64,000 bases of DNA, taken from sequence record OZ346228.1, one strand, 5' to 3'. This DNA comes from a phage. The notes beneath the pieces were generated by a model that worked only from the letters and a program-made list of their open reading frames with translations, ran no database searches and had not been told where the DNA came from. The position numbers and the translations under genes were made by a program. Numbering within the stretch: position 1 is the first letter of the stretch; the number at the start of each line of letters is the position of its first letter. Below are positions 1 through 56,792 of this stretch, piece by piece.

Positions 1-1548
1 ATGTCTAAGATTTACGGACCGTGTTCTGAAAAGCAGAAGATGATCCTCGAAAACGATGCAGATATCTTGGTAATCGGCGGTGCCGCAGGGTCTGGCAAGT
101 CGTTCCTCTTGCAGTTGATGCCACTTAAAATTATTGATGACCCCCACAGCTCTGTGGTTATGTTCCGAAGAACAACCCCACAGTTGGAAGGTGAGGGTGG
201 ACTATGGCCTAAAGCAGTAGCTATTTATAGTGATCTGCCTGAAAACATTAAGCCAAAGTTCAGAGAGAAGGATCATAAGTTCATTTTTCCACGGTTTGAT
301 CCGAACACTGGTAAGTGGGATAGAAGCAAAAAGGGAGCTGTTGTAAAATACTGCCATATGGAGTATGTACAAGATAAGCTTAACCATCAGGGGCTTGAGT
401 ACACCATGGTTTGCTTCGATGAGGGCACGCAGTTCGAATGGGAGCAGATAGACTACCTGATGTCTCGTCTGCGATCTCAGTCAAAGTATCCATCAAGAAT
501 GGTTATCAGCTGTAACCCCGATTCAGAACACATGCTTGCCAAACTGGTTAGATGGTGGTTGGACGATGAAGGGTATCCAGATCCGGAGAAATGCGGTAAG
601 AAAAGATATTTTATCCGACGCGACGGTGAATTTATATGGGGAGACTCTAAAGAAGAGTTGATAGAGAAATACACCACGGTTAACGGACTGGGTGTGGAGA
701 TCAAGCCAAGACCGTTGTCATTCTCGTTTATAGGCGCAACAATATTCGATAATCCTGTCTGCTTAAGAGATAACCCAGAATACCTTGCTTTCCTTGAAGG
801 TCTGCCGGAACTGGAAAAAGCTCAGCTTCTTCATGGTAACTGGTTTGCAAAGCCTGAAGGTGCAAACTATTTTCAAAGATCTTTCCTTCGTGATGCCGAT
901 AGAGTACCCCTTGGATCAGTATCTTGCAGGGCATGGGATAAGGCAGGAACCGAGAGAACTTCCGGTAATAAATTTCCTGACTTTACCGCCAGTATTAAGG
1001 TAAGTAAAGATAGCGACGGCTTTTATTACCTGTCCGGTGATTATTGTCCTGAGAACGTGGATGACGGGAGGTATTCCACAGGTCTGGAAGGCAAGTTCTG
1101 TAAAAAGGCTGGTGAACGAGATGTGATCATCAGGAAACAGGCGCAGTTCGATGGTGATGATTGCATAATCGTCTTCTCTGTGGACCCAGGTCAGGCAGGT
1201 AAGAGTGAGTTCTTAACCTCATCCAGATCCTTGCTCGCCGAAGGGTTCAGGGTTGAAGAAGACCCAATGCCTTCCAACAAATCTAAACTGACAAGGTTCT
1301 CACCTTTTGCCAATCTTGCACAACAAGGAATGGTGAGGATTGTAAAATCCAGTTTCCATCCTGATACTCTGGAAGCATTTCTGACTGAACTTGAAAAATT
1401 CAACGGGGAAAGATCAACATTTAACAGAAAAGACGACTGGGCAGACTGTGTAGCTTCTGCGATTAATTTCCTGGAGAAAGAGGAGGTAGCACTTCCTTGT
1501 GTGATTCCATCAATCTCATCACCTTCTATGTTCAAGCGTTTTATCTAA
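1..1548 (+). CDS. terL: terminase large subunit
   Basis: 515-aa ORF; Walker A-like motif VIGGAAGSGKS near N-terminus; first gene of head module, followed by portal-sized gene. Confidence 0.85.
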   Translation: MSKIYGPCSEKQKMILENDADILVIGGAAGSGKSFLLQLMPLKIIDDPHSSVVMFRRTTPQLEGEGGLWPKAVAIYSDLPENIKPKFREKDHKFIFPRFDPNTGKWDRSKKGAVVKYCHMEYVQDKLNHQGLEYTMVCFDEGTQFEWEQIDYLMSRLRSQSKYPSRMVISCNPDSEHMLAKLVRWWLDDEGYPDPEKCGKKRYFIRRDGEFIWGDSKEELIEKYTTVNGLGVEIKPRPLSFSFIGATIFDNPVCLRDNPEYLAFLEGLPELEKAQLLHGNWFAKPEGANYFQRSFLRDADRVPLGSVSCRAWDKAGTERTSGNKFPDFTASIKVSKDSDGFYYLSGDYCPENVDDGRYSTGLEGKFCKKAGERDVIIRKQAQFDGDDCIIVFSVDPGQAGKSEFLTSSRSLLAEGFRVEEDPMPSNKSKLTRFSPFANLAQQGMVRIVKSSFHPDTLEAFLTELEKFNGERSTFNRKDDWADCVASAINFLEKEEVALPCVIPSISSPSMFKRFI

Positions 1549-15839: not shown

Positions 15840-16843
15840 TGGCAGAGTACAGACGTAGAACATGGCGATTATTGTTTGGTCGTCCTGTAGAACATGGCGG
15901 TAAATCAAAAACCAATATCCCAAAATCTGTTGAAAAGAAAGGGGAGAGTGATTCCGGAGTTTATGAAGTTAGCTCAGACACTGGTGCTGCCAATGTAGAG
16001 TTTGACATACAAAAGGACAATACCAAAGAGCCAAACAAAGGTTATGTGACAGTTTACAACCTGTCTGACGATACAGTTAACTATCTGGATATGCATCAGG
16101 CTGATGCCCTTGCAGTTATGTTTGAAGCTGGCTATGATAATGAGAACCAGTTGATATTCTCCGGAACTGTGGAGTTTGTTGAAGACAGGTGGGAAGGTCC
16201 GACCAGAAAAACTAAGTTCATCTTTGGGGATGGCACTGAGAACATCATTAAGTGCCAAAGCACAAGATCTTATCAGAAAGGTACACCTCTGAACTCTGTG
16301 CTTAATGACCTACTGAAGGATATGAACTTGCCAAAAGGTAGGGTTGTTGGTTTTGGAAACCAGACTTTGCAATACTCTATGGCTTTCTCTGGAAACACTG
16401 CAGAGAACCTCCGCAGGTTTGCAAGGCTGACCAACTCAACATTTAGCGTTCAGGATGGGGCTTTGTATTGGACCAAGGTTGGAAAAAGGTTCAAAGACTC
16501 TGTGTTTGAAATAAGTGCAGAGTCTGGGATGCACGGATCTCCTACCCCTAAAAACCCAGAACCTGCTAAAAAACGAAAAGCTAAAGCTGCTGCCAAAGGT
16601 GGTTCGACATCTAAAAAGAAAAAGAAAAACCCGAGAGAGGATGTTGGCCTTACTGTAACCACATGCCTTAACGGAGCTATCCTCCCAGAGTCCACTATTT
16701 ATCTTAAAAGCAAGCAATATACAGGCTTCTATAAGGTGATCACGGTGCATCATAAGGGCACCATAGAAGGTGGTGATTACACTACAGAGCTTGGTCTTGG
16801 GGAAACAGTGGGTGGAGTTGTTGACAAAACTGAGGAGGTATAA
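15839..16843 (+). CDS. baseplate hub-like protein (putative)
   Basis: 334 aa; overlapping start; contains unusual Lys-rich stretch KKRKAKAAAKGGSTSKKKKKN; lies upstream of spike-like and gp25-like genes. Confidence 0.35.
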   Translation: MAEYRRRTWRLLFGRPVEHGGKSKTNIPKSVEKKGESDSGVYEVSSDTGAANVEFDIQKDNTKEPNKGYVTVYNLSDDTVNYLDMHQADALAVMFEAGYDNENQLIFSGTVEFVEDRWEGPTRKTKFIFGDGTENIIKCQSTRSYQKGTPLNSVLNDLLKDMNLPKGRVVGFGNQTLQYSMAFSGNTAENLRRFARLTNSTFSVQDGALYWTKVGKRFKDSVFEISAESGMHGSPTPKNPEPAKKRKAKAAAKGGSTSKKKKKNPREDVGLTVTTCLNGAILPESTIYLKSKQYTGFYKVITVHHKGTIEGGDYTTELGLGETVGGVVDKTEEV

Positions 16844-17520
16844 TGGCAATAAATAGGAAAGATGCTGCTGTAAGATCTTTTATAGAAAAAATAATGAGGG
16901 ACTACCACACCAGTATCAGGGCCAGAGTTGTCAGTGTAGACTACAGTATACCTTCTGCAGCCGTGCAGCCAATAGCTGAAACTACGTTTGATGACGGAGA
17001 TGTGGAGAGATACCCTCTTATCTATGACGTTCCAATTCAGGTGATGTCTGCAAACAGCGGAAAGGCAAGGTTAACACTCCCTATTAAGGCTGGAGATGTT
17101 GTAGGATTGCAGTTTTCAGAGAGAAATGAAAACAATAACGACGATCAACAAACTCACGGCCTGTTTCCAGGGTGGGCAATCACCTCTGTTCATTCAGACT
17201 CAAACGCCTTACAGATCGATCCTGATAACGTAGAGTTATGGAATGATAGGGTTTATTTTAAACTGACACCTTCTGGCGATTTTGAGCTTCAAACACCTGG
17301 TGGGACATTACGGTGCGACAGCAGCGGGGAGTTTTCTTTCACTAACGGGGCTGCCAATTTGCGAGCTGCTGTGGATGGGAATATCAGAATGAATGGTGCT
17401 ACAATAGACCCATCTGGTAGAATTATAACTGCTGCTGGCGTGGATTTGGATTCATTCTATGCAGAATATAAAGGTCATACCCACTCTTGCCCTGATGGCG
17501 AGACAAGTGGACCGCACTAA
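16843..17520 (+). CDS. baseplate central spike-like protein (putative)
   Basis: 225 aa; His/Cys-containing C-terminal tip HTHSCPDGETSGPH; immediately upstream of gp25-like gene. Confidence 0.4.
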   Translation: MAINRKDAAVRSFIEKIMRDYHTSIRARVVSVDYSIPSAAVQPIAETTFDDGDVERYPLIYDVPIQVMSANSGKARLTLPIKAGDVVGLQFSERNENNNDDQQTHGLFPGWAITSVHSDSNALQIDPDNVELWNDRVYFKLTPSGDFELQTPGGTLRCDSSGEFSFTNGAANLRAAVDGNIRMNGATIDPSGRIITAAGVDLDSFYAEYKGHTHSCPDGETSGPH

Positions 17521-17532
17521 TAGAGGGCTTTC

Positions 17533-18249
17533 ATGGCTACGCTTTATAGTGATATATTGATGGACCCGCAGACAGGCGATTTGGCGATAGACAAAGGTCT
17601 TGAGTTGATAGATTCAAACCAGGTAAGTCTGCGCCAGCGCTTGTGGATGAGGTTTAATACGTGGAAGGGGAGCTGGTACTTTGACGAGCTGTTTGGCTTC
17701 CCTTATATGGACTTTCTCAGCAAGAAGGTCATGAAGACTGTTCTTGATAACAAGATCATGGAAGTGGCAAGACAAGAGCCGGATGTGCTAAACATCATAA
17801 ACTTCCAGTCTACCATGGACCGAAGATCGAGAACATACCAAGCGTTCTTCGAGGTTGTTACCAAAGAGAACGAGATTGTAAGGCTGGCTTTCGTAGGTCT
17901 TGATCAGTTCACCTACCCACAGCCTGATTCTGGGACAACCTCTCTCTGTGATGATGAGGGTTGGATTAAGTGGGCTAATAAACTGTACTATCTGATCAAC
18001 TTCAGATTGCCTAGAACAGGAGATGCCACATGGTGGAACCAGTATGCTGGCCCTGAGATGGAAAACCCGATCCCTGTAGGCTCTCTGTTGACTCAGGATA
18101 AAGATCTGCTGATGACTGAGGCAGAACAAACCATTAACCGCAATACCTGGACGCTTGCTCCAGATGAGCGCGAATACTCTGGTGTTATTGCTACCTCCAA
18201 TGATGAGGCTATTGCCAACCAGTCTGGTCGTGCTATTGATGTTAACTAA
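17533..18249 (+). CDS. baseplate wedge protein, gp25/gpW-like N-terminal domain
   Basis: N-terminus TLYSDI..SLRQRL..NTWKGSWYFDELFG matches T4 gp25 pattern KLYSDI..T.KGSRPFDPEFG recalled from memory; 238 aa is longer than typical gp25. Confidence 0.6.
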   Translation: MATLYSDILMDPQTGDLAIDKGLELIDSNQVSLRQRLWMRFNTWKGSWYFDELFGFPYMDFLSKKVMKTVLDNKIMEVARQEPDVLNIINFQSTMDRRSRTYQAFFEVVTKENEIVRLAFVGLDQFTYPQPDSGTTSLCDDEGWIKWANKLYYLINFRLPRTGDATWWNQYAGPEMENPIPVGSLLTQDKDLLMTEAEQTINRNTWTLAPDEREYSGVIATSNDEAIANQSGRAIDVN

Positions 18250-18258
18250 GGAGAAATC

Positions 18259-18927
18259 ATGGCTGTAGCTTATCCTACAATACCAATTCCAGATCTTGAA
18301 GATGCAGAAACAGTCCTGAGTGATGACTTCTTGGTTGTCAACCAGACTGATGGGACAAGAAAGGCTAAGATTGACGATGTTGTCAACGATCTTAGTATTA
18401 CTAAGATAGTCTATTTCACAGAGGGTGGTTATCTTAAGAGCAAGAAGGACTTTGCTTATGACCCAGAGACTAAGCGCTACTACACGTGGAACGGGGATTA
18501 TCCTAAAATAATCCTCCCAGACTCCACCGTAGAGGGTGCTGGGGGCGTGTCTGCAAATGCCTGGTCTGTTTTTGGTGAGCTTGCTGCAACTTCTTCTGGC
18601 AGAATAGTTGATTACGGATCTATCGGTGGTCAGCTTGATATGGATCTTGAAGTTGCGGATACCTTTAAGGTTCGACTAACTTCAAATACCACAATCTCTT
18701 TTGAAAATCAAACAGAAGGTCTTGAAGGGGTGGCGAGAACTATAACCGTATGCATTACTCAGACCTCTGGCGGCAACAAAGTCTATTGGCCTGGTAATGT
18801 TAAATGGTCCTACGGAAGAGATCCTATCCTAACATTTACAGCTGGTGCAACAGATATTTTCAAGTTGGAAACCTACGACAACGGGTTAACTTGGTACGGG
18901 GCACTGATTATCGCAGGAGCTATCTAA
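18259..18927 (+). CDS. receptor-binding protein anchor-domain protein (putative)
   Basis: 222 aa; N-terminal region is paralogous to N-terminus of 21562..22713 (DD.LVV.Q.D.TR.KI.DVV ... EGG.L ... FAY). Confidence 0.45.
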   Translation: MAVAYPTIPIPDLEDAETVLSDDFLVVNQTDGTRKAKIDDVVNDLSITKIVYFTEGGYLKSKKDFAYDPETKRYYTWNGDYPKIILPDSTVEGAGGVSANAWSVFGELAATSSGRIVDYGSIGGQLDMDLEVADTFKVRLTSNTTISFENQTEGLEGVARTITVCITQTSGGNKVYWPGNVKWSYGRDPILTFTAGATDIFKLETYDNGLTWYGALIIAGAI

Positions 18928-35133: not shown

Positions 35134-36174
35134 ATGTCAAAACCTAGTTTTCCATTAGAGATTTGGGCAGAGGAGGATCAGGTTCTGCCTAACACCCACA
35201 GACAGAACAGGCTACGCCCGATCGATGATTTGTGGAGAAAAGGTTGGGATCTTGGTCAAAAGCCATCCTGTGAAGAACTTAACTATATTTTCAATATGCT
35301 CGGAACTTGGGCAAAATACATTGCTGACGAGCAGATCCCCGCTCAAGAAGGCCGTTATCTGGTACGTGATAATAACTTGAGCGATCTTTTGAACATCCCT
35401 GTTGCCCGTAGAAACCTTGGGATTATCACTAAGGAAGAGGCAGACGCCAGGTATGTAAAAGTTACAGGTGATACAATGACAGGCCCCTTGGGGTTGCAAC
35501 GTATCAACTTTAAAGCTGCCGAGACAGATAAGGCTTGGATAGAGACAACTATTGGCCCAGATAAGACAACTCTCGACTTTGGGTTAAGTGATAATACCGG
35601 GTCGTTTGATGATGGTGGTACATCTACAGTGGATGCGTTTCGTTGGAGATTCCAGCCAACTCAGCCGGATATTAATCCAGAGTTCACTTTGATGTACCTT
35701 AACGCGATCACGGCTAATCGTGCGCTGTTGAAAGTGGTAGGCAATGTTGAAGTTGTCGATAACATGAGGTGCAATAACCTTACTATCAGCAATACAGCAA
35801 CATTCACCAACTGTAATGTGGCTAGTCAGTTGACGGCTGGGTCAGTATATGTTAATGGTGGTGCAAGTTGTGACAGTATGGTTGTAAGAAGCCAGCACTG
35901 TGTTGTCGGTAACAGAAATGTGGTGCGCTCCGTGAATGGAGTGACGGCTAACGGTAACGGTGATGTAACGATCACTATCCCGCAGACAGGTGTGCAAGAC
36001 ATCAGAATCGGTGCAAGACTTGTGGACGGCGTTTCTGAATCTCCAATCCGCAACGGCTACGTTGTCACAGGCTGGCATTTCGGTGACAAAAAAGAGATGC
36101 GTGGTTCAACCTACTGGGCAGGACCCTTACAAAAACTTGTAAATGGTCAATGGATCACTGTTAATTATGCATAG
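35134..36174 (+). CDS. tail fibre protein (copy 1)
   Basis: 346 aa; followed by Tfa-type assembly gene; N- and C-termini paralogous to 37187..38230 (ends GPLQKLVNGQWITVNYA). Confidence 0.65.
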   Translation: MSKPSFPLEIWAEEDQVLPNTHRQNRLRPIDDLWRKGWDLGQKPSCEELNYIFNMLGTWAKYIADEQIPAQEGRYLVRDNNLSDLLNIPVARRNLGIITKEEADARYVKVTGDTMTGPLGLQRINFKAAETDKAWIETTIGPDKTTLDFGLSDNTGSFDDGGTSTVDAFRWRFQPTQPDINPEFTLMYLNAITANRALLKVVGNVEVVDNMRCNNLTISNTATFTNCNVASQLTAGSVYVNGGASCDSMVVRSQHCVVGNRNVVRSVNGVTANGNGDVTITIPQTGVQDIRIGARLVDGVSESPIRNGYVVTGWHFGDKKEMRGSTYWAGPLQKLVNGQWITVNYA

Positions 36175-37186: not shown

Positions 37187-38230
37187 ATGACTAAACCAGT
37201 TATCCCTCTTGATATTTGGGCCAATCAGGATGTTGTGCTTGAAAATACGGGAGAGTTGAATAAGTCTCAACCAAAAAAAGAAGAGAGATTGAAAGGTTGG
37301 GATATGACACAAAGAGTGGCATGTGAAGTTGTTAACTTTGAACTTCACATGCTTTCTGCGTGGTTAAAGCATTTAACAGAAGATGTTGTCCCAGGATGGG
37401 ATAATAGATTCTTAAGGGTCACTAATAATCTAGCAGACGTTCCAGACAAAGCTGCTGCACGTCAAGTTCTCAATGTATACTCGCCTGAAGAAATGGACGA
37501 TCTGTATGTTGACAAGTCTGGAGACATAATGACTCAGACTCAAACTTTAGGCCTTCAAAGAATCGAGTTTGCATCTGCGTCAACAGACAATGCGGCAATA
37601 TATACCACCATAACTCCAGACAAGACGACGATGGACTTCTGGATTATGGACAACATCGGTGGTGCTGACGGCACAGACCTTGATGATCCTTCTCACCAAA
37701 TAGACGGGTTCCGTTGGAGATTTCAACCTTCTGGTGGGCAGCCTGTGTTTTCGGCTATGAAGCTCAATGCTATAACTGCCAACCGTGCAAGACTGGCTAT
37801 CCAAGGAAATCTTGAATGCAACGATGCAAAAAGTTCCTCTGCAAATGCCAATGCGGTCACGATACCAAGAGCCACTGTTAACGGACAACAATCCTGCGGA
37901 AGCGCTCAAATAGGTGGAAGAGTTGATTGTAACGATGAAACCGTTAGAGGCCAATATGCAACCGTTGGTGGAAGAAACGTGGTCCGCAGGGTAAACGGTA
38001 ACAGCGCAGACGGTAGTGGTAACCTTACTGTCCCTATGCCCAGTAGAGGGGTTGACGATGTAAGGATAGCGAACCGTTTCAAAACCACCTACAGAGAGTC
38101 AAGGGTCTACCCTGGACATGTGATGTGCTCTGGTAACTACGCTTATAAACACCCTTATCAAGGTGATTACTGGACAGGTGCTATCCAAAAACTTGTAAAC
38201 GGTCAATGGATCACTATATCTTATGCTTAA
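37187..38230 (+). CDS. tail fibre protein (copy 2, paralog)
   Basis: ATG 37187 after RBS CAGGAG and own promoter TTGCAT-17-TGtTAAAAT; N-terminus PLDIWA and C-terminus GAIQKLVNGQWITISYA shared with copy 1. Confidence 0.6.
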   Translation: MTKPVIPLDIWANQDVVLENTGELNKSQPKKEERLKGWDMTQRVACEVVNFELHMLSAWLKHLTEDVVPGWDNRFLRVTNNLADVPDKAAARQVLNVYSPEEMDDLYVDKSGDIMTQTQTLGLQRIEFASASTDNAAIYTTITPDKTTMDFWIMDNIGGADGTDLDDPSHQIDGFRWRFQPSGGQPVFSAMKLNAITANRARLAIQGNLECNDAKSSSANANAVTIPRATVNGQQSCGSAQIGGRVDCNDETVRGQYATVGGRNVVRRVNGNSADGSGNLTVPMPSRGVDDVRIANRFKTTYRESRVYPGHVMCSGNYAYKHPYQGDYWTGAIQKLVNGQWITISYA

Positions 38231-49690: not shown

Positions 49691-49954
49691 TTAGAAACCC
49701 TCTAAAAAGCTCTTGTAGAAAATAATTTCAGTATCTACACCAGTCACGATCTTATCGTTCCTGATTTCATCTGTAAGGTAGGTGTCAAAACGCAGAACCT
49801 GTGTGGTGTTGTCACACATCCACTCAGCTGTGACCATTGCGAAAATCTTAGCATCTTCATTATCTGGTGTGAATGTTACCACCTCACCGCACTTAAACTT
49901 TTCGATAGGCTGAGTGTTAGCTTTCGGTTCTGCGATAGTGATTTTTGTGGTCAT
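49691..49954 (-). CDS. small paralog family member 3
   Basis: 87 aa; motif KCGEVVTF; tandem with members 1, 2 and 4. Confidence 0.5.
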   Translation of the reverse strand: MTTKITIAEPKANTQPIEKFKCGEVVTFTPDNEDAKIFAMVTAEWMCDNTTQVLRFDTYLTDEIRNDKIVTGVDTEIIFYKSFLEGF

Positions 49955-50217
49955 TATTCTCCTCCTTCTTTTGAATAGCTTGTCTCTCCAAGGATGGTAA
50001 TTTTGGTGTCAAGCTCTGTAACTTTCATGTTTGGCGGCAGATCGTACAACTCATTATTTTCTAAATCGAACCCCCACACACAATGTTCTCCTGTTTTGAC
50101 AATCATAACTATGTTTTGAATGCCGTCTCCGTCGCAACTTACCACAGTCCCACACGGAAAGCTGTCTGCACGCTTTTTGTTCTTCACCTTAGAATTGAAT
50201 ACAATGCTGGTAGCCAT
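49954..50217 (-). CDS. small paralog family member 2
   Basis: 87 aa; motif PCGTVVSC; stop/start overlap with neighbours. Confidence 0.5.
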   Translation of the reverse strand: MATSIVFNSKVKNKKRADSFPCGTVVSCDGDGIQNIVMIVKTGEHCVWGFDLENNELYDLPPNMKVTELDTKITILGETSYSKEGGE

Positions 50218-50480
50218 TATTGTTCCTCCACCATAACTTCGCCAATAATTTCTATGCAGGCATCCATTTCTGTAACAACCAAACTGTGAGGTAGTTCTAC
50301 AAACACCTTTCTGAACAGGTCAAATACCCCAACATATATGTTTGCAGGATGTGATTTTACAACAAGTGCTGTATTCACATCCCCAAGTTCATCAACAAAC
50401 ATCACCACAGTGCCTGGAGCTACTGAGGACAGATACTTCTTAGTTTTACGGTTTGATGCAAATTTTAACTCTGTTGCCAT
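50217..50480 (-). CDS. small paralog family member 1
   Basis: 87 aa; motif APGTVVMFVD; first of four tandem same-length genes directly downstream of the metallopeptidase-VWA gene. Confidence 0.5.
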   Translation of the reverse strand: MATELKFASNRKTKKYLSSVAPGTVVMFVDELGDVNTALVVKSHPANIYVGVFDLFRKVFVELPHSLVVTEMDACIEIIGEVMVEEQ

Positions 50481-50495
50481 AAATAACCTCCTCTC

Positions 50496-51977
50496 TTACT
50501 TAGCGTACTCGATTAATTCCACAGTTTTACCAAAGCTCGGGATATAATTTTTATTATACCCCTCAGTGAGGACCCATAGAGTATCGTACTTTTTCCACTT
50601 GTTGTCAACAACCTTTTGTTCAAAGTTATGCTCAAAGTATAGGTCGGTCAGGACGATGACATCTTTTGCATTAGGTATGTTGGCATCCAGATACTCGAAC
50701 ACGCAAGCAGCTGTTGTGCCCCATGTTGAGTGGACCTCATAGTTGATCATCTCGTCTATGTTGCCGCGAGTGTATACTTTAACCTCTCCAACCTCAGTTG
50801 ACCAACAGAACATTGTAACCTTAAACTCTTTATACAGATTGCACAATCCGGTGATTTCATTGAACATTTTCTTTAAAGTTCTTTGAGAGATCGAGCCAGA
50901 AACGTCTAAAGCCACCACAATATCTATAGTGTTTTCCGGATTACGACCAGGAACAATAACGTGCTGGTTCTTGTTTATAGCCCCAACTTTTCGCATTGTG
51001 CTGGTCAAAGACCCAGATCGGCGACCAGGTTTTCTGTAGGTCAGTTCGGCCTTTCTTTTAGACAACATACGTTGCTTAATGATGTCTATATAGTTGATTA
51101 CAGGCTTACCTCTGTTCTTGACAAACTCACGCACCGCCTCAGGGCAACGGCCTCCGGACGCTTGCATTGCTGCCTCCAGCATATCACCAGAGTCCTGCAT
51201 GGCCTGATCTTTATCAGATTGGCTGATTACAGGTTGTGGCTGATCATACCCCATAGCCTTTCCAAGATTATCACTGGTGCCACCGTTCCCACTCATGTGA
51301 TCATCGGTTTGTCGCTTATCACTTTGAGAGTTCTCACCTTTACCGTTCTTACTTTTACCGTTATTCTGATCTCTTTGCTTATCAAGAACTGCATAAACGT
51401 TCTCAGCAATCCATCCATGAAACTTCATGTCGCAGTAGCAGCTGGCTAAGAAGCCAAAAGGCTTACCTTTCATGAACGTAGTGCTTTTCCCCTTCGGGAA
51501 GAAAACACAAGGGGGTTTGCTAAAGTCAACCACAAGGCCTGTGTTGATAACGTGATCACAAGCAATATTGAACAGTTCCGGCTCAAAGCTTTTACCACGG
51601 ACTAGGTGATCACAGATAATATGCCCCACCTCATGTGACAGAAGGAAGGCCACCTCTTTCACAGATTTTGGGGAATAGAAAACTTCAGCCATCTCAAACT
51701 GCTCGTCAGTTAGAGAAGCCTTAAGAATAGCCTTGCGCTCATCAGCCAATCCCATAATGAACTCAGGACTGTAATAGATGCGTTTATGGTCGGTTGCCAT
51801 GGTGGAGCACCATGTGTGGTTTTCTACGAACTGCAACCCTGACAGTAGTGTGCCATAAAACGGCAGCTTTTCAAGGAGATACATACGTGCAGCCTGCAAC
51901 ATTCTCAGGGCATCATCTTTCTGCGAGGCAATGATTTCTGAACTTCTGCTATCCATTAAAACTCCAGAAGGGGCCAT
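50496..51977 (-). CDS. putative zinc metallopeptidase domain + von Willebrand factor A (VWA) domain protein
   Basis: 493 aa; HExxH motif (HEVGHIICDH) in N-terminal half, Gly/Ser/Asp-rich linker, C-terminal MIDAS-like motif DIVVALDVSGS. Confidence 0.7.
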   Translation of the reverse strand: MAPSGVLMDSRSSEIIASQKDDALRMLQAARMYLLEKLPFYGTLLSGLQFVENHTWCSTMATDHKRIYYSPEFIMGLADERKAILKASLTDEQFEMAEVFYSPKSVKEVAFLLSHEVGHIICDHLVRGKSFEPELFNIACDHVINTGLVVDFSKPPCVFFPKGKSTTFMKGKPFGFLASCYCDMKFHGWIAENVYAVLDKQRDQNNGKSKNGKGENSQSDKRQTDDHMSGNGGTSDNLGKAMGYDQPQPVISQSDKDQAMQDSGDMLEAAMQASGGRCPEAVREFVKNRGKPVINYIDIIKQRMLSKRKAELTYRKPGRRSGSLTSTMRKVGAINKNQHVIVPGRNPENTIDIVVALDVSGSISQRTLKKMFNEITGLCNLYKEFKVTMFCWSTEVGEVKVYTRGNIDEMINYEVHSTWGTTAACVFEYLDANIPNAKDVIVLTDLYFEHNFEQKVVDNKWKKYDTLWVLTEGYNKNYIPSFGKTVELIEYAK

Positions 51978-51989
51978 CGGCCCCTGTCA

Positions 51990-53030
51990 TTATTTAACGT
52001 GTTTGAAAATACCTGCCAACTCGGTCATTGTCATGCGGGTGGTCTTCATAAGATCTGTCATAGCTTTCTCCATAATTGGAGATACTACCATAAAGTTTCC
52101 TTTAGTGAAACCTTTATTCCAGTCGGTCACCAACAGGGGTTTAAGTCCAGCTCCAAGACGTTCACCAGTTAAAGCACAGCATTTGCGAATATACGAACTC
52201 TTAAATTGGCTGAACGACAGATCAACTTTCATACCTACATCGTAGAACGTTTGACAATAGAAAGTGTAAGCTTTGGCAATCTCAACATCATCAGGTAGTG
52301 CAGGAACCTCTTCTGTAAGCTCCTCTTCGACCTCCTGAGTCTCTTTTTCCTCTTCATGCACCTGTTGCGTCATTTCTTCAATCTCTTCTGTGATAGGCTC
52401 GTTTACAATGTCGGAAATGTGCTTCTTGGGTGCACGATAAGTAACTTTAGACATCGGTAGCATATCTTCCTCCTCTTCTTCGTCAAAGAGTGCTAGTTTA
52501 TCCTCTTCCGTTCCATATTGCAAGATGAAATCTTCAAAAGTATAATCACCTTTCAATTTCTCCATACGCTCTTCGCTCAGGTGGAGCATCATCTGCTGGA
52601 CAATTTTTCGATCAGTTTCGTCTTTAATCAAGACTGCAGTCTTTTTATCTACCAGACAGTCCTTTAGAGAGTTGCATCTCAATCCCACCACACAACAGTT
52701 ATCAACCGCATAAGGACCTTCATCATCTATCCGCTCCAGAGATGGGTAGAAAGGATTCCCCAGCCCGTTTTCATCTGTGTGCATGTCAAAAGGTATAAGG
52801 GTATAGTCGCATACTCCATCTCCTAAAAGTTTTTTACCAAATAGGAGGTATTCTTCCCATGACAGGTCGAACTCTATATCTCGTTTCCGTGCGTTATTCT
52901 GTTTGCGTCTATATTTTTTGAGCAAGCGCTCTAACTCTTCTGGTGTATAATATTTTTCAAGATTCATGAGTCGTCTCTCGTGCTCTGTAAGTGAAGAAAT
53001 CGTATCAATTGTCTCAACAGATGTCAACAT
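51990..53030 (-). CDS. tandem His-Me-finger (HNH-like) endonuclease-domain protein
   Basis: ATG at 53030 (track starts at TTG 53033); first domain C.Y..PSLERIDDEGPYAVDNCCVVGLRCNSLK; degenerate second copy ALTGERL..LLVTDWNKGFTKGNFMVV; acidic linker between. Confidence 0.45.
   Translation of the reverse strand: MLTSVETIDTISSLTEHERRLMNLEKYYTPEELERLLKKYRRKQNNARKRDIEFDLSWEEYLLFGKKLLGDGVCDYTLIPFDMHTDENGLGNPFYPSLERIDDEGPYAVDNCCVVGLRCNSLKDCLVDKKTAVLIKDETDRKIVQQMMLHLSEERMEKLKGDYTFEDFILQYGTEEDKLALFDEEEEEDMLPMSKVTYRAPKKHISDIVNEPITEEIEEMTQQVHEEEKETQEVEEELTEEVPALPDDVEIAKAYTFYCQTFYDVGMKVDLSFSQFKSSYIRKCCALTGERLGAGLKPLLVTDWNKGFTKGNFMVVSPIMEKAMTDLMKTTRMTMTELAGIFKHVK
52431..52459. repeat. 29-bp inverted repeat, left copy (reverse complement of TACCGATGTCTAAAGTTACTTATCGTGCA)
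   Basis: Reverse complement of 52431..52459 matches 54293..54321 exactly; lies in linker of tandem-HNH-like gene. Confidence 0.85.
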
Positions 53031-53040
53031 CAAAAACGTG

Positions 53041-53069
53041 TTGACTTTACTCTAACTCCACAATATAGT
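53041..53069 (+). promoter_or_regulatory. sigma70-like promoter for + early operon
   Basis: TTGACT, 17-nt spacer, TATAGT; in divergent region between 53030 (-) and 53110 (+) gene starts. Confidence 0.5.
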
Positions 53070-53109
53070 GCACCCATTCGAAAGAAAACTAACATAGGAG
53101 CACTTACTT

Positions 53110-54009
53110 ATGGCAAATCTTAACAGTTTTAGTACGCGGTGGAAACAGGACATAACAACCAATCTTTCAGCTGGGGACATCCTTTCTGCAATTTACGAGG
53201 CTTTAGATGATAAAGCTACTTCAAAAGCGGTTTGTACCAACCCATTAATTCCTATAGTGATGAAGGTTATTGAGCGTAGATTGGTATCTGGGTCTGATAA
53301 GTGGACATATTTAGATAATGAAGGACACACCTATTCCAATGGGTATGTCGATATAAAAGTAGAATACGCGGTATCATACCGCCGGAGCGGTTCTGTAACT
53401 TTCAACTTCTCTGGAGGTTTTCGATCTCTGGCTACCTCACCTTTTGTTTCCTCAGAGGAGAAGTATGAGCTGCCATTTCTTTGGATGATGGCTAACGCGA
53501 CAGGAAAAACCCCCGTTAGCATCCGAGTAAAATACAACTACAACGGATCTAGTAAGATCTATGCCGAAAGTGTCTCAGCAAGTTTTTATTTTGTGATGGG
53601 GGATGGAATCCTCAAACATATAAAGATGTGCGATATGCATGATGTTATAAATGAAGTGACTGATAAGAATGTTCTAGTGAAAGACCTCAACAATTTTTAT
53701 ACACCTGGAGACTATTACGTCAGCCGTCCACTGTGCATCTTTAATGCCGCACACCCTCTAGGTGAGTATTTGATCGCCAATAGCGATATTGCCAATAACC
53801 GCTTCGAGGTAGCAAGAGTTCAGAATGAGGTATTGACATCTTGCAAGAGCGGTGATAAGTTTACCGAAGAAGAGATGGGTGTTTTAGAAATGATGGGATA
53901 TAAGTGTAGCCTTTGGGTAGATGAGGTGTTTAATGATTGCATCTATGGACAGGATATTTACCCATTAAAGAAGTATACTGATACAAGTTTAATTTATGCG
54001 AGGGTTTGA
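53110..54009 (+). CDS. hypothetical early protein
   Basis: 299 aa; first gene after divergent promoter TTGACT-17-TATAGT; RBS AGGAG. Confidence 0.45.
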   Translation: MANLNSFSTRWKQDITTNLSAGDILSAIYEALDDKATSKAVCTNPLIPIVMKVIERRLVSGSDKWTYLDNEGHTYSNGYVDIKVEYAVSYRRSGSVTFNFSGGFRSLATSPFVSSEEKYELPFLWMMANATGKTPVSIRVKYNYNGSSKIYAESVSASFYFVMGDGILKHIKMCDMHDVINEVTDKNVLVKDLNNFYTPGDYYVSRPLCIFNAAHPLGEYLIANSDIANNRFEVARVQNEVLTSCKSGDKFTEEEMGVLEMMGYKCSLWVDEVFNDCIYGQDIYPLKKYTDTSLIYARV

Positions 54010-54011
54010 CT

Positions 54012-54284
54012 ATGATGAAGGCATGTGGTAATGTATATTACGTCGGTGAACATGTTCAGGCAGACAGTGTGTGGAAATCTATTAAGTCCACCACTGACGA
54101 TGCCCTTCTGAGTGGACTATGTTTCCCCAATCCGGGAGACATCCTCCCTCATCCTGGAGATTTTGTTGTCAACAAGATGGACGGTTATACCGTGTGCCTG
54201 ATGGTTGAAAAAATCTTTTTAGACACTAGACACAATCACCGTCTTGTGTTAAAATTTCAAGAATGTAAAATGACAATTGCCTAA
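54012..54284 (+). CDS. small hypothetical protein
   Basis: ATG at 54012 (track start TTG 54006 overlaps upstream stop). Confidence 0.4.
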   Translation: MMKACGNVYYVGEHVQADSVWKSIKSTTDDALLSGLCFPNPGDILPHPGDFVVNKMDGYTVCLMVEKIFLDTRHNHRLVLKFQECKMTIA

Positions 54285-54292
54285 GGAGACCT

Positions 54293-54321
54293 TACCGATG
54301 TCTAAAGTTACTTATCGTGCA
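54293..54321. repeat. 29-bp inverted repeat, right copy (TACCGATGTCTAAAGTTACTTATCGTGCA)
   Basis: Contains ATG start of 54298 gene; exact inverted match to 52431..52459. Confidence 0.85.
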
Positions 54322-54654
54322 GCTATTTACTGCAATGAACACCCAATCAATAATGATGGTCACTGCCTTTTTAAAGAAAATCAATTGGGCTGTATTGTCC
54401 TCCCTGATGAAGGGGAAGGTTATCTGATTGCATTGACAGGGTTTGAACCTGAGGCTCTGGAAGCCAATCTGGACTACCTGGTAGAAGAGGGTGCTGCAGA
54501 CCTGGTTGCCAATGGCCTCTCCATAAGCCTTGACGAAGTAGAGCGCTTCATGGGCAATTACCGTGTAGTGCGTGAGTTTACTATCGAGGTGGAAACTCCC
54601 GAGTGGAGTAGCCATGAAACTAATGCCGAAGAAAAAGAAGAGGAGGTAGAATAA
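54298..54654 (+). CDS. hypothetical acidic protein
   Basis: ATG 54298 after RBS AAGGAG; N-terminal codons MSKVTYRA lie inside the 29-bp inverted repeat. Confidence 0.45.
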   Translation: MSKVTYRAAIYCNEHPINNDGHCLFKENQLGCIVLPDEGEGYLIALTGFEPEALEANLDYLVEEGAADLVANGLSISLDEVERFMGNYRVVREFTIEVETPEWSSHETNAEEKEEEVE

Positions 54655-54911
54655 TGAAAGTGCAGATCTTGACTAATGCCGAGAAGATGTTTATTGAAGA
54701 TACACCTTTTGAAGCTGGTGAGCTACAGTTCGTTTATTTTGTTGACTTAGATAAGGTGTTTCCTGCACTGAATCTAGGTTTGGATGAAGTTCCTCATAAG
54801 GTTTTGTGCCAAGTTGTTCGTGCCTTAGCGGCAGAGGGGGAGTTCCACACCCTTCAAGATGTCCAGACCTACGGGTATCTTGAACTACAACGAGAAGAAG
54901 AGGTGGACTGA
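54654..54911 (+). CDS. small hypothetical protein
   Basis: 85 aa; start overlaps upstream stop. Confidence 0.4.
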   Translation: MKVQILTNAEKMFIEDTPFEAGELQFVYFVDLDKVFPALNLGLDEVPHKVLCQVVRALAAEGEFHTLQDVQTYGYLELQREEEVD

Positions 54912-55338: not shown

Positions 55339-55608
55339 ATGTTATACCAGCAATATGAACTTCGTGCAGAAAAAGAGTTAAATTTTGACAAAGATATTCA
55401 CAGATATTATTATGGGAAAGTTAGAGGGCAAGCAAGAAAGTGTACTCCAACACTCTTTTATGCCAGCAGACGACTAGCGCCAGAAGAGGCAACAGCAGAA
55501 AGGGTTGCGTACAACTGGAGAGTCACGTATGATATTGACAGATTCGATGTGATATCTGTTTTGGAAAACTTTGAAAACACTTACACACAAGTAGAGGACT
55601 TTTACTAA
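55339..55608 (+). CDS. small hypothetical protein
   Basis: 89 aa; RBS AAGGAG. Confidence 0.4.
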   Translation: MLYQQYELRAEKELNFDKDIHRYYYGKVRGQARKCTPTLFYASRRLAPEEATAERVAYNWRVTYDIDRFDVISVLENFENTYTQVEDFY

Positions 55609-56792
55609 TGTCAAGAAACGTATTCGAAAGTGGTCAAATCACTGTCCGTGAGTTGCCAGCTATTATTCAGTTTGCCCAACGTCATAGCCGATCTGTCCTA
55701 ATTTTGGGACCAATGGGTGTGGGTAAAAGCCAGGTGATGAAGCAGATCGCTGATAATATGTTCGGTGAGCGAGATGACAACCTTGTTGACGTGCGACTGT
55801 CAGATAAAGATCCTGCCGACTTATCTGGGCTACCTATCCCTGTAGAAGCGGATGGAACTACACGTACAGTGTTTGCAATTCCAGAATTTTGGCCTGCGGA
55901 TCCTGACTGGAGCGGAATTATCTTTCTGGATGAGCTCACTCATGCAGATAACTACCTGCAAAAGGTTGCAATGCAAATTATGCTTGACCACAAGTGCGGC
56001 ACCTATGCATTCCCTAAGGGTTCTGTTTTTGTGGCTGCGGGTAACCGTTCTACAGATGGTGCGGTTCTTTCGGCGCTCGAAGCCCCTCTGGCTAACCGTT
56101 TTATCATTGTAGAGGTTACAAGCAATGCAGAGGTGTTTATTGAGGACTACGCATTCCTCAACGGGGTTCACTCCTCTGTAATTGGGTATCTGAAAAGAGT
56201 TCCATCAGCTATTGATAATTATGAGGCTATGGCTGAGATTAATTGTCCATCTTTTGCCACACCACGATCTTGGGTTGCTGCATCTGACATCTTGCACGAT
56301 TTTGACAGCGGTATTATTTCTGACGCTATGGCCCGTGTTCTTCTGCAAGGTGCTATTGGTCACACTGCAGCGGTAGAGATCTGGACATACCACACCAAGA
56401 AACGCAATTTACCGGAAATCGGTCGGATTATGGCAGGTGGCTGCAAAGAATACGTAGGCCCTAAGCAGCCAGACATTTTGTGGATTCTTGGATCTGAAGG
56501 TTGTATCGCTATTCGTAATATGATGGAAAATGCAAGTATCTCAGACGAAGATCTTGTCAGCTGTGTGGCAAACTTCCTCGATTTCCTTTGGGAAAACTTC
56601 AAGGACGAGAACCGAGATTTTGTATTCTCAGTCTTTATGGCGATGATGAAACCTAATGCCTTAGGAAATGCCTTGCTTATCGGTAAAGGGCGTGACAAGA
56701 TTGTTGCTCAGCTGATCAAAGCATACCCAAACCTGATGAAGATTGTAAAAGAGTTTGGTGAAGAGTTTAGCGCCATTTTGGCTAAAGCTTAA
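55608..56792 (+). CDS. MoxR-like AAA+ ATPase
   Basis: 394 aa; Walker A GPMGVGKS, Walker B IIFLDELTHAD, sensor-like AAGNRS; MoxR/CbbQ-type architecture. Confidence 0.7.
   Translation: MSRNVFESGQITVRELPAIIQFAQRHSRSVLILGPMGVGKSQVMKQIADNMFGERDDNLVDVRLSDKDPADLSGLPIPVEADGTTRTVFAIPEFWPADPDWSGIIFLDELTHADNYLQKVAMQIMLDHKCGTYAFPKGSVFVAAGNRSTDGAVLSALEAPLANRFIIVEVTSNAEVFIEDYAFLNGVHSSVIGYLKRVPSAIDNYEAMAEINCPSFATPRSWVAASDILHDFDSGIISDAMARVLLQGAIGHTAAVEIWTYHTKKRNLPEIGRIMAGGCKEYVGPKQPDILWILGSEGCIAIRNMMENASISDEDLVSCVANFLDFLWENFKDENRDFVFSVFMAMMKPNALGNALLIGKGRDKIVAQLIKAYPNLMKIVKEFGEEFSAILAKA

What the first reader, a model, noticed from the sequence alone, without database searches (positions are those of the whole stretch)
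52431..54321. 29-bp perfect inverted repeat that carries a start codon and sits in-frame inside two opposed genes
TACCGATGTCTAAAGTTACTTATCGTGCA occurs at 54293..54321 and as an exact reverse complement at 52431..52459. In both genes it encodes LPMSKVTYRA in frame: at the start of the + gene 54298..54654, and inside the acidic linker between the two HNH-like domains of the - gene 51990..53030. A 29-bp exact match by chance is very unlikely in 64 kb. The bracketed 1.8-kb segment holds the intact N-terminal HNH-like domain, the divergent promoter region and two + genes. Possible explanations: an invertible segment that swaps which body follows the shared N-terminal codons, a shared translational operator, or a recombination scar.
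Basis: seen in the sequence. Interest (0 to 1): 0.7.

Follow-up and report, generated by a model that had tools for sequence, protein, structure and literature searches.

The report
Copied patch scar in phage gene
The 29-base perfect inverted repeat is real, but it is the footprint of a one-off copying accident in one branch of the rV5-like coliphages: the start of one gene was pasted into the flexible linker of a neighbouring, oppositely oriented gene. It is not a DNA switch or a regulatory site.

Summary
The window is Escherichia phage naswa (Vequintavirus, rV5-like). The 29-bp exact inverted repeat is at the stated coordinates, in frame in both genes, and far beyond chance.

The two arms have different histories:
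- **Right arm (54293-54321).** This is the ribosome-binding spacer plus the first 8 codons of the rV5 gp008 homolog. It is present in all 116 full-length Vequintavirus records.
- **Left arm (52431-52459).** It lies in the acidic linker of the Srd-like gene (rV5 gp011 homolog). It occurs in only 28 records (26 phages), which form a tight allele group.
- **The other 88 records.** They carry a different, 12-nt-longer linker (DMSPMQDFKNFMADRAANKHIS). A related form of that linker occurs in relatives with about 65% identical protein, so it is ancestral.

The ancestral linker already shared 7 nt (ACCGATG) and 10 nt (ATCGTGCAGC) with the gp008 start, exactly at the patch edges. The donor is unchanged. 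This is therefore a non-reciprocal, microhomology-bounded templated mutation (template switch or ectopic micro-conversion).

No record shows the inverted orientation. I found no invertase in the genome. The arms are already diverging independently in nomine, A51.2 and ECP32, and the 29-mer has no special RNA structure.

Verdict: a real feature with an ordinary mechanism, most likely a neutral scar.

The parts
54293..54321 (+). Donor arm: the last 5 nt of the SD-AUG spacer plus codons 1-8 (MSKVTYRA) of the rV5 gp008 homolog. It is ancestral and genus-wide.
   Evidence: The 69-nt context is present at 90% identity or more in all 116 Vequintavirus records. 45 are at 100%, including rV5, which lacks the other arm. 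The gene is annotated naswa_88 with an RBS upstream.
52431..52459 (-). Recipient arm: a derived 29-nt copy of the donor inside the acidic linker of the Srd-like gene. It replaces about 41 nt of ancestral linker, a net loss of 12 nt.
   Evidence: It is present in only 28 of 116 records. The others read ...ATGTCACC(G/A)ATGCAGGA(T/C)TTTAAAAA(T/C)TT(C/T)ATGGCT(G/A)ATCGTG(C/G)AGCC.... The protein alignments agree.
51990..52967 (-). Srd-like 'anti-sigma factor' gene (rV5 gp011 homolog): two conserved domains joined by a hypervariable acidic linker.
   Evidence: phrog_3118 matches the full length; phrog_1400 (Srd) and phrog_4592 (sigma70 decoy) match the N-terminal domain. The rV5 paper calls gp11 an Srd homolog (PMC3606486). 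The architecture is kept in Seunavirus and Avunavirus, where linker length is very variable.
54298..54654 (+). rV5 gp008 homolog, 118 aa, function unknown. It is the owner of the donor sequence.
   Evidence: phrog_12908 (unknown function), no Pfam hit. Annotated naswa_88. A 29%-identical homolog in a more distant relative starts differently, MKVVVL....
52999..53069 (.). Divergent sigma70-type promoters for the two early operons, lying between the arms: - strand 53027..52999, + strand 53041..53069.
   Evidence: Both score 10/12 in the scan. Bidirectional promoters between rV5 genes 10 and 11 are reported in PMC3606486. Promoter P11 is annotated in rV5.
53110..54284 (+). rV5 gp010 homolog (53110-54009) and gp009 homolog (54012-54284), the two + genes between the arms. 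They are bystanders.
   Evidence: Annotation. phrog_12338 and phrog_12847, both of unknown function; no Pfam support for the 'fucosyltransferase' label.

Best explanation
**What it is.** The repeat is the footprint of one templated, non-reciprocal mutation.

**What happened.** In an ancestor of the Murica-type Srd allele, DNA synthesis through the Srd-like linker briefly used the start of gp008 as template. That start lies 1.8 kb away in inverted orientation. Entry and exit were at pre-existing microhomologies: ACCGATG on one side and ATCGTG(CAGC) on the other. About 25 nt of linker (CAGGATTTTAAAAAYTTCATGGCTR) were overwritten by 13 nt of gp008 sequence (TCTAAAGTTACTT). This produced a 29-nt perfect inverted repeat and changed the peptide from SPMQDFKNFMADRAAN to LPMSKVTYRAPK.

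**Why it survived.** The change is in frame and sits in a linker whose length and sequence vary freely across the subfamily. It then spread by homologous recombination among co-infecting Vequintaviruses.

**What it does now.** Nothing is maintaining it. It is a scar, not a switch or an operator.

**Shown versus inferred.** Shown: derived state, donor identity, non-reciprocity, microhomology, restricted distribution, fixed orientation, independent decay of the arms. Inferred: the enzymology (replication-fork or repair-synthesis template switch rather than recombinase-mediated micro-conversion) and neutrality.
For: - **Derived versus ancestral.** 28 of 116 records carry the patch. The other 88 carry the longer linker, and loci with 63-65% identical protein (L005-L008) carry a recognisably related form of it.
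- **Single origin.** Patch-bearing Srd proteins are at least 98.5% identical to the window, and the next allele is 92.7% or less. 27 of the 28 are 100% identical over the 69-nt junction.
- **Donor pre-exists and is unchanged.** The gp008 start is in all 116 records, and is identical in rV5, which lacks the patch. This excludes a reciprocal exchange or a double inversion.
- **Microhomology.** The rV5-type ancestral linker shares ACCGATG and ATCGTGCAGC with the donor, exactly at the patch borders. Such quasi-repeats are common by chance: about 30 per 64 kb within 3 kb, against 18-27 in shuffles.
- **No maintenance.** In nomine and A51.2 the + arm has A>G at position 2 while the Srd arm is intact. 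In ECP32 the arms differ at 2 positions.
- **Tolerant site.** The linker ranges from very short (Av-05) to long (GAP31) across Vequintavirinae.
- **Spread by recombination.** The locus is mosaic. The patch occurs in phages assigned to different species: naswa and LL12 in V. murica, nomine in V. APECc02.
- **Precedent.** Template switching between imperfect inverted repeats that homogenises the arms and rewrites several codons at once is documented (PMC5941160, PMC8604942). The first of these cites it for phage T4.
Against: - **Distance.** The donor and recipient are 1,833 bp apart. That is far beyond the spacers of 70 bp or less used in the surveys of quasipalindrome template switching I read. 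The classical hairpin version does not fit; a cross-fork or repair-synthesis switch has to be assumed.
- **Unexplained junction changes.** Three substitutions next to the patch match neither the donor nor any sampled ancestor: TCA>CTA on the left, and GCC AAC>CCC AAG on the right. No second template was found, and no intermediate allele either.
- **Replaced motif was conserved.** The replaced peptide (M-x-P-x-Q-[DE]-[FL]-[KR]-x-F-M...R) is kept between alleles with about 65% identical protein. Strict neutrality is therefore not proven.
- **Frequency.** The patch allele makes up about a quarter of sequenced isolates and sits in several backgrounds. That could reflect hitch-hiking or some advantage.
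- **Limits of assemblies.** Consensus assemblies cannot exclude rare inversions within phage populations.
Confidence: 0.85

Rival explanations
1. Invertible segment. The 29-bp repeats are crossover sites, and inversion of 52460-54292 swaps which body follows the shared LPMSKVTYRA codons. The products would be a Srd-N::gp008 fusion and a free Srd C-terminal domain.
For: The geometry allows it. In-silico inversion gives two open, in-frame products, and the divergent promoters would travel with the segment. The arm length is in the range of known crossover sites (own knowledge of Mu gix and Salmonella hix).
Against: - All 116 records, including the 28 with both arms, are collinear in one piece.
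- The repeat is absent in 88 of 116 relatives.
- No invertase, integrase or resolvase is annotated in naswa.
- tblastn with Hin, Gin, gamma-delta resolvase, XerD, FimB and Cre gives nothing below E=1 on the whole genome.
- The 29-mer lacks the dyad symmetry of hix/gix sites; it has only a 5-bp internal stem.
- The arms are diverging.
Confidence: 0.03
2. Shared RNA element. Both mRNAs carry the same 29 nt around an AUG. A translational repressor, sRNA or RNase would then act on both, or the copy would create an internal start that expresses the Srd C-terminal domain separately.
For: Both copies are in the sense strand of their mRNA. A purine-rich, SD-like GAGGAGGAAGAT precedes the Srd-internal ATGs.
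Against: - The Srd copy is absent from three quarters of the genus.
- The Met codons and the GA-rich stretch are ancestral features of an acidic linker, not imports.
- The SD itself (AAGGAG) was not copied.
- The 5' part of the arm varies freely among genomes: TACCG, TGCCG, TACCA, TATCA, TACTA, TACCT.
- There is no significant structure: z = -0.05 for the 29-mer, and the two contexts fold differently.
Confidence: 0.05
3. Adaptive linker edit. The origin is the same templated event, but the new linker peptide (shorter, and lacking the conserved QDFKNFMA motif) was selected because it changes Srd-like protein function. The inverted repeat is then incidental.
For: The replaced motif is conserved between loci whose proteins are about 65% identical. 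The patch allele is common (26 phages from several countries and hosts) and occurs in more than one species background.
Against: - Linker length and sequence are highly variable across the subfamily.
- The locus is mosaic, so the spread is explained by ordinary recombination and hitch-hiking.
- There are no functional data.
Confidence: 0.1
4. Foreign allele. The Srd linker allele was imported from another phage, and its identity to gp008 is coincidental or comes from that other genome.
For: The 52300-52700 segment of the window is of FV3/SYGMH1 type, while the flanks are JeffSchatz/rV5 type. This shows that this part of the gene does move between genomes.
Against: - 29 of 29 identity to the resident gp008 start cannot be coincidence.
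- Every sampled FV3-type allele has the ancestral linker.
- A donor on a co-infecting Vequintavirus genome would be the same mechanism, only in trans.
Confidence: 0.02

Closest known systems
Quasipalindrome / inverted-repeat template-switch mutations (Ripley model; phage T4, E. coli thyA and rpsL hotspots; yeast coding-sequence cases in PMC8604942; proteobacterial IR survey PMC5941160)
   Same: - A cluster of substitutions plus an indel appears in one step.
- Every templated change increases complementarity to a pre-existing inverted sequence.
- The donor is unchanged.
- Short microhomologies flank the tract.
- An imperfect inverted repeat becomes a perfect one, and several neighbouring amino acids change at once.
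   Different: The arm separation here is 1,833 bp, against 70 bp or less in the surveys read. An intrastrand hairpin is therefore implausible, and an inter-strand (cross-fork) or repair-synthesis switch is needed. The tract is long, 13 nt of new sequence and 29 nt of final identity. Three junction-adjacent changes are untemplated.
Ectopic (non-allelic) gene conversion and microhomology-mediated template switching during break repair (MMBIR/FoSTeS type)
   Same: Non-reciprocal copying from a donor kilobases away, microhomology at the switch points, and extra point changes near the junctions.
   Different: Classical gene conversion needs much longer flanking homology than 7 to 10 nt. MMBIR is usually described for large rearrangements, whereas here the outcome is a clean 29-nt in-frame patch with return to the original template.
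Phage DNA-inversion switches (Mu G segment/Gin, P1 C segment/Cin, e14 Pin, Salmonella Hin)
   Same: Short inverted repeats lie inside coding sequence, so that a constant N-terminal part could in principle be joined to alternative bodies. An in-frame outcome is possible.
   Different: There is no invertase and no second orientation in 116 genomes. The repeats are not conserved in relatives. There is no hix/gix-like dyad. The genes are early genes of unknown or Srd-like function, not tail-fibre genes.
T4 Srd (for the recipient gene)
   Same: The N-terminal domain matches the PHROG families annotated Srd anti-sigma factor and sigma70 decoy. The rV5 paper assigns gp11 as an Srd homolog.
   Different: The similarity is distant and covers the N-terminal domain only. 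There is no Pfam family and no solved relative. Function in rV5-like phages is untested.

Membership tests
Templated (template-switch / micro-conversion) mutation | The changed state is derived: outgroups and most ingroup genomes carry a different, mutually homologous sequence. | tested here: met
   88 of 116 records and the loci with about 65% identical protein (L005-L008) have the longer ancestral linker. The patch allele is a tight group, at least 98.5% identical against 92.7% or less for the rest.
Templated (template-switch / micro-conversion) mutation | The new sequence matches a pre-existing sequence elsewhere in the same genome exactly. | tested here: met
   29 of 29 identity to the gp008 start, which is present in all 116 records.
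Templated (template-switch / micro-conversion) mutation | Non-reciprocal: the donor is unchanged. | tested here: met
   The gp008 start is identical in patch genomes and non-patch genomes such as rV5. No record shows MQDFKNFMA at gp008.
Templated (template-switch / micro-conversion) mutation | Microhomology between the ancestral recipient and the donor at both tract ends. | tested here: met
   ACCGATG (7 nt) and ATCGTGCAGC (10 nt) in the rV5-type allele. ACC.ATG and ATCGTG.AGC in the FV3-type allele.
Templated (template-switch / micro-conversion) mutation | Classical quasipalindrome form: arms close enough to form a hairpin (spacer of tens of bp). | tested here: not met
   The spacer is 1,833 bp. 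The surveys read used 70 bp or less. The mechanism is therefore template-switch-like, but this is not a classical quasipalindrome hotspot.
Site-specific DNA inversion system (Gin/Hin/Cin/Pin type or tyrosine-invertase type) | A recombinase gene in the element or genome. | tested here: not met
   None is annotated in the 138.6-kb genome. tblastn with six recombinases gave no hit below E=1.
Site-specific DNA inversion system (Gin/Hin/Cin/Pin type or tyrosine-invertase type) | Both orientations found among isolates or within populations. | tested here: not met
   116 of 116 full-length records are collinear in a single piece. inoa and ECP32 were checked by coordinates and sequence. Within-population heterogeneity is not testable with these tools.
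Site-specific DNA inversion system (Gin/Hin/Cin/Pin type or tyrosine-invertase type) | Inverted repeats conserved in relatives and kept identical. | tested here: not met
   The left arm is absent in 88 of 116 records. The arms diverge in nomine, A51.2 and ECP32.
Shared translational operator (RegA-type or autogenous repressor site) | The site overlaps the functional initiation region of each regulated gene. | tested here: not met
   The Srd copy is about 170 codons inside the ORF. The gp008 SD was not copied.
Shared translational operator (RegA-type or autogenous repressor site) | Conservation of the site across related genomes. | tested here: not met
   The left arm is missing in most relatives. 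The 5' part of the right arm is polymorphic.
Shared translational operator (RegA-type or autogenous repressor site) | A cognate RNA-binding repressor and a measurable effect on translation. | not testable with these tools
   This needs expression or binding experiments.
Srd-like anti-sigma / sigma70-decoy family (recipient gene) | Significant profile match to the family. | tested here: met
   phrog_1400 at 2.3e-10 and phrog_4592 at 3.3e-13, on the N-terminal domain. Function was not tested.

The most novel reading that the evidence does not exclude
In Murica-clade phages the accidental 29-bp inverted repeat could now serve as a substrate for rare, recombinase-independent homologous inversion of the 1.8-kb promoter-bearing segment. 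That would give subpopulations that make a Srd-N::gp008 fusion and a free Srd C-terminal domain. This would be a nascent gene-shuffling switch caught at birth. Alternatively, the copied gp008 start codons could drive internal initiation of the Srd C-terminal domain in this clade only.
Probability: 0.04. Interest if true: 0.6.

Novelty: new member of a known kind. Interest (0 to 1): 0.22.

Why it matters
This is a clean natural example, with donor, recipient, ancestral allele and microhomologies all visible. It shows how a single templated event can rewrite a dozen codons of a phage protein and create a long perfect inverted repeat between opposed genes.

It matters mainly as a caution. A statistically impossible perfect repeat that sits in frame in two genes looks like an engineered switch, but comparison with about 116 relatives shows it to be a recent scar.

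It also extends documented inverted-repeat template switching from spacers of tens of bp to about 1.8 kb in a lytic phage. It marks the Srd-like linker as a site that tolerates drastic change. It does not reveal a new regulatory or recombination system.

Tried and rejected
- **Gene-fusion scar.** I considered that the Srd C-terminal half was once a separate gene starting with MSKVTYRA. Rejected: the two-domain protein is full length across Vequintavirinae (Seunavirus, Avunavirus) at 37-45% identity, and none has that sequence.
- **Reciprocal exchange by two successive inversions at the two microhomologies.** Rejected, because gp008 keeps its own sequence everywhere.
- **A second template for the three untemplated junction changes.** None was found in the window.
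- **Intermediate alleles.** A metagenome scan with a degenerate linker pattern gave only 4 loci, 1 patch type and 3 ancestral type, with no intermediates. IMG/VR gave only 6 related loci.
- **RNA structure of the shared 29-mer.** Not significant.
- **An internal promoter created by the patch.** A TTGACG-16-TATGCT match at 52486..52459 scores 9/12. The region has 8 promoter-like sites against 6.4 expected, so I gave it no weight.
- **Solved-structure and Pfam searches of the Srd-like protein.** Nothing found.
- **Schultz & Drake 2008, on templated mutagenesis in T4.** Not available in the library. It is cited only through the reference lists of PMC5941160 and PMC8604942.
- **Recombinase search.** The negative result is supportive, not definitive.
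Full report
**1. Observation**

The 29-mer TACCGATGTCTAAAGTTACTTATCGTGCA occurs at 54293-54321 (+) and as an exact reverse complement at 52431-52459. No other copy appears with up to 3 mismatches, and none of 100 dinucleotide shuffles gives two matches. It is the only perfect long inverted repeat in the window.

It is read as LPMSKVTYRA in both ORFs. An in-silico inversion of the intervening 1,833 bp gives two open, in-frame chimeric ORFs.

**2. Identity of the locus**

The window is 100% identical to Escherichia phage naswa (MN850595; Vequintavirus, rV5-like).

- **The - gene** is the rV5 gp011 homolog, annotated 'anti-sigma factor'. The rV5 genome paper calls it an Srd homolog (PMC3606486). 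PHROG profiles agree for its N-terminal domain. Pfam and PDB sequence searches find nothing.
- **Its start** is most likely ATG 52967, not 53030. A TTGACA-17-TACGAT promoter lies at 53027-52999, and rV5 has an annotated promoter at the equivalent position.
- **The + gene**, 54298-54654, is the gp008 homolog of unknown function.
- **Between the arms** lie the Srd N-terminal domain, the divergent promoters described for rV5 genes 10 and 11, and the gp010 and gp009 homologs.
- **'Two HNH-like domains' could not be substantiated.** The C-terminal domain has no independent family hit, and N versus C gives BLASTP E=0.81.

**3. Comparative evidence**

A 2.8-kb query spanning both arms and their flanks matches 119 phage records. 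116 of them match over at least 80% of the query, and each match is one collinear piece. No deposited genome has the segment inverted.

| Arm | 69-nt query | Records with a match | Detail |
|---|---|---|---|
| Right (gp008 start) | 54273-54341 | 116 of 116 at 90% or more | 45 at 100%, including rV5 |
| Left (Srd linker) | 52411-52479 | 28 (26 distinct phages) | 27 at 100%, ECP32 at 97% |

The other 88 records carry a different linker:

- Derived linker: ...EEDMLPMSK----VTYRAPKKHIS...
- Ancestral linker...EEDMSPMQDFKNFMA[DN]R[AG]ANKHIS...

The longer form has a recognisable counterpart, MTPAQELREFMEKRAEKHIK, in relatives with 63-65% identical protein (L005-L008). In those relatives the gp008 homolog starts differently.

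Across other Vequintavirinae genera (PVP-SE1, GAP31, Av-05) the two-domain protein is conserved. Its linker varies greatly in length and sequence, and never contains MSKVTYRA.

Patch-bearing Srd proteins are at least 98.5% identical to the window. All others are 92.7% or less. The left arm is therefore a recent, single-origin, derived state, and the right arm is the ancestral donor.

**4. Anatomy of the event**

| Sequence | DNA |
|---|---|
| Ancestral recipient (rV5 type) | GATATG TC**ACCGATG** CAGGATTTTAAAAATTTCATGGCTG **ATCGTGCAGC** CAACAAA |
| Donor (gp008 start) | GGAGACCTT **ACCGATG** TCTAAAGTTACTT **ATCGTGCAGC** TATTTAC |
| Derived recipient (window) | GATATG CT**ACCGATG** TCTAAAGTTACTT **ATCGTGCA**CC CAAGAAG |

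- About 25 nt were replaced by 13 nt, a net loss of 12 nt that keeps the frame. The replaced tract lies between microhomologies of 7 and 10 nt that already existed in the recipient.
- The donor is unaltered in every genome, so the event was non-reciprocal. This excludes a pair of inversions.
- Quasi-repeats of this kind (an inverted 10-mer plus a collinear 7-mer within 3 kb) are common by chance: 31 in the window against 18-27 in shuffles. The pre-existing microhomology needs no special explanation. It simply marks where a switch could happen.
- Three changes adjacent to the patch match neither donor nor sampled ancestors: one on the left and two within 6 nt on the right. I found no second template and no intermediate allele. 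They remain unexplained. Error-prone synthesis at the switch points or later substitutions are both possible.

**5. After the event**

The arms are not being kept identical.

- nomine and A51.2 have an A>G change at position 2 of the + arm, while their Srd arm is intact.
- ECP32 has TACCTATG in the Srd arm and TATCAATG in the + arm.
- The 5' part of the + arm (the SD-AUG spacer) is polymorphic across the genus.
- The locus is strongly mosaic. JeffSchatz is about 100% identical to the window on both sides but only 68-77% at 52300-52500.
- The patch allele occurs in phages assigned to different species. It has therefore been moved around by ordinary homologous recombination.

**6. Tests of the functional readings**

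*Invertible segment.*
- No alternative orientation exists in 116 assemblies.
- The repeat is absent in most relatives.
- No recombinase is annotated in the whole 138.6-kb genome.
- tblastn with Hin, Gin, gamma-delta resolvase, XerD, FimB and Cre gave no hit below E=1.

*Shared RNA operator or internal start.*
- The Srd copy is deep inside an ORF.
- The gp008 SD was not copied.
- The two Met codons and the GA-rich stretch upstream are ancestral features of the acidic linker.
- The 29-mer folds no better than shuffles, and its two contexts fold differently.

Internal initiation itself cannot be tested here.

**7. Mechanism and comparison with known processes**

The signature has four parts: a derived multi-nucleotide change, an exact match to an inverted sequence nearby, an unchanged donor, and microhomology at both ends. 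This is the signature of templated mutagenesis by template switching between imperfect inverted repeats. That process is documented in E. coli, yeast and humans, and is cited for phage T4 (PMC5941160, PMC8604942).

The difference is scale. The arms are 1.8 kb apart, whereas the surveys I read consider spacers of 70 bp or less. A hairpin in the nascent strand is therefore implausible.

I infer a switch across the replication fork, or during repair or recombination-dependent synthesis, with return to the original template. This amounts to a microhomology-mediated ectopic micro-conversion. The enzymology is inference. The evolutionary facts are shown.

**8. Verdict**

The feature is real and the cause is ordinary.

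It is a new instance of a known kind of mutational process, unusually long-range and unusually well resolved. It also serves as a warning against reading function into improbable repeats without comparative data.

A small residual possibility, about 4%, is that the repeat now supports rare inversions or clade-specific internal initiation.

Noticed in passing
window 51900-54700 versus GenBank MG0656xx records: Sixteen GenBank records named 'Campylobacter phage' (host C. jejuni) are 92-99.6% identical to E. coli Vequintavirus genomes at this locus. They are about 135-143 kb, like rV5. They are probably coliphage contaminants or mislabelled entries.
   Followed up: no
window 53023-53045: The -35 boxes of the two divergent early promoters form an 8-bp inverted repeat, GTCAACAT-7 nt-GTGTTGAC. 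The terminator scan also picks it up. It could be an operator-like palindrome shared by both promoters.
   Followed up: no
window 52250-52750: There are sharp mosaic breakpoints inside the Srd-like gene. Phage JeffSchatz is about 100% identical to the window at 52788-54900 and 97-100% at 51800-52200, but only 68-77% at 52300-52500. In that stretch the window resembles FV3/SYGMH1/ECP32-type alleles.
   Followed up: partly
window 50496-51977 (-) and 55608-56792 (+): A DUF2201_N metallopeptidase plus DUF2201 VWA-like protein and a MoxR-like AAA ATPase flank the locus in divergent operons. RefSeq names the first one, and the Srd-like gene, 'HNH endonuclease', which Pfam does not support.
   Followed up: partly
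window 49691-50480 (-): Three consecutive genes of exactly 264 nt encode distantly related 87-aa proteins (20-26% identity to the first). They form a small tandem paralog family of unknown function.
   Followed up: partly
window 36112-36173 and 38168-38229: A 62-nt direct repeat (81% identical) forms the 3' ends of two tail-fibre genes, naswa_63 and naswa_66. Each is followed by a small accessory gene, suggesting duplicated receptor-binding modules.
   Followed up: partly
window 53110-54009 (+): The long-propagated annotation 'putative alpha 1-3 fucosyltransferase' for the gp010 homolog has no Pfam support. Its only match is a PHROG family of unknown function.
   Followed up: no
L015 (ECP32) and L029 (metagenome contig ODLN01005777.1): ECP32's Srd-linker arm has T at arm position 5 (TACCTATG). 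That variant exists in the gp008 start of other genomes (L029), but not in ECP32's own gp008 start (TATCAATG). This is either chance at a synonymous site or a hint of a second conversion before recombination reshuffled the locus.
   Followed up: partly
naswa record 16198-18351 (window 1-728 covers the end): The large terminase subunit is annotated as three separate CDS pieces (naswa_29, 30, 31) with a 350-nt gap. This suggests an intervening element or an annotation split.
   Followed up: no
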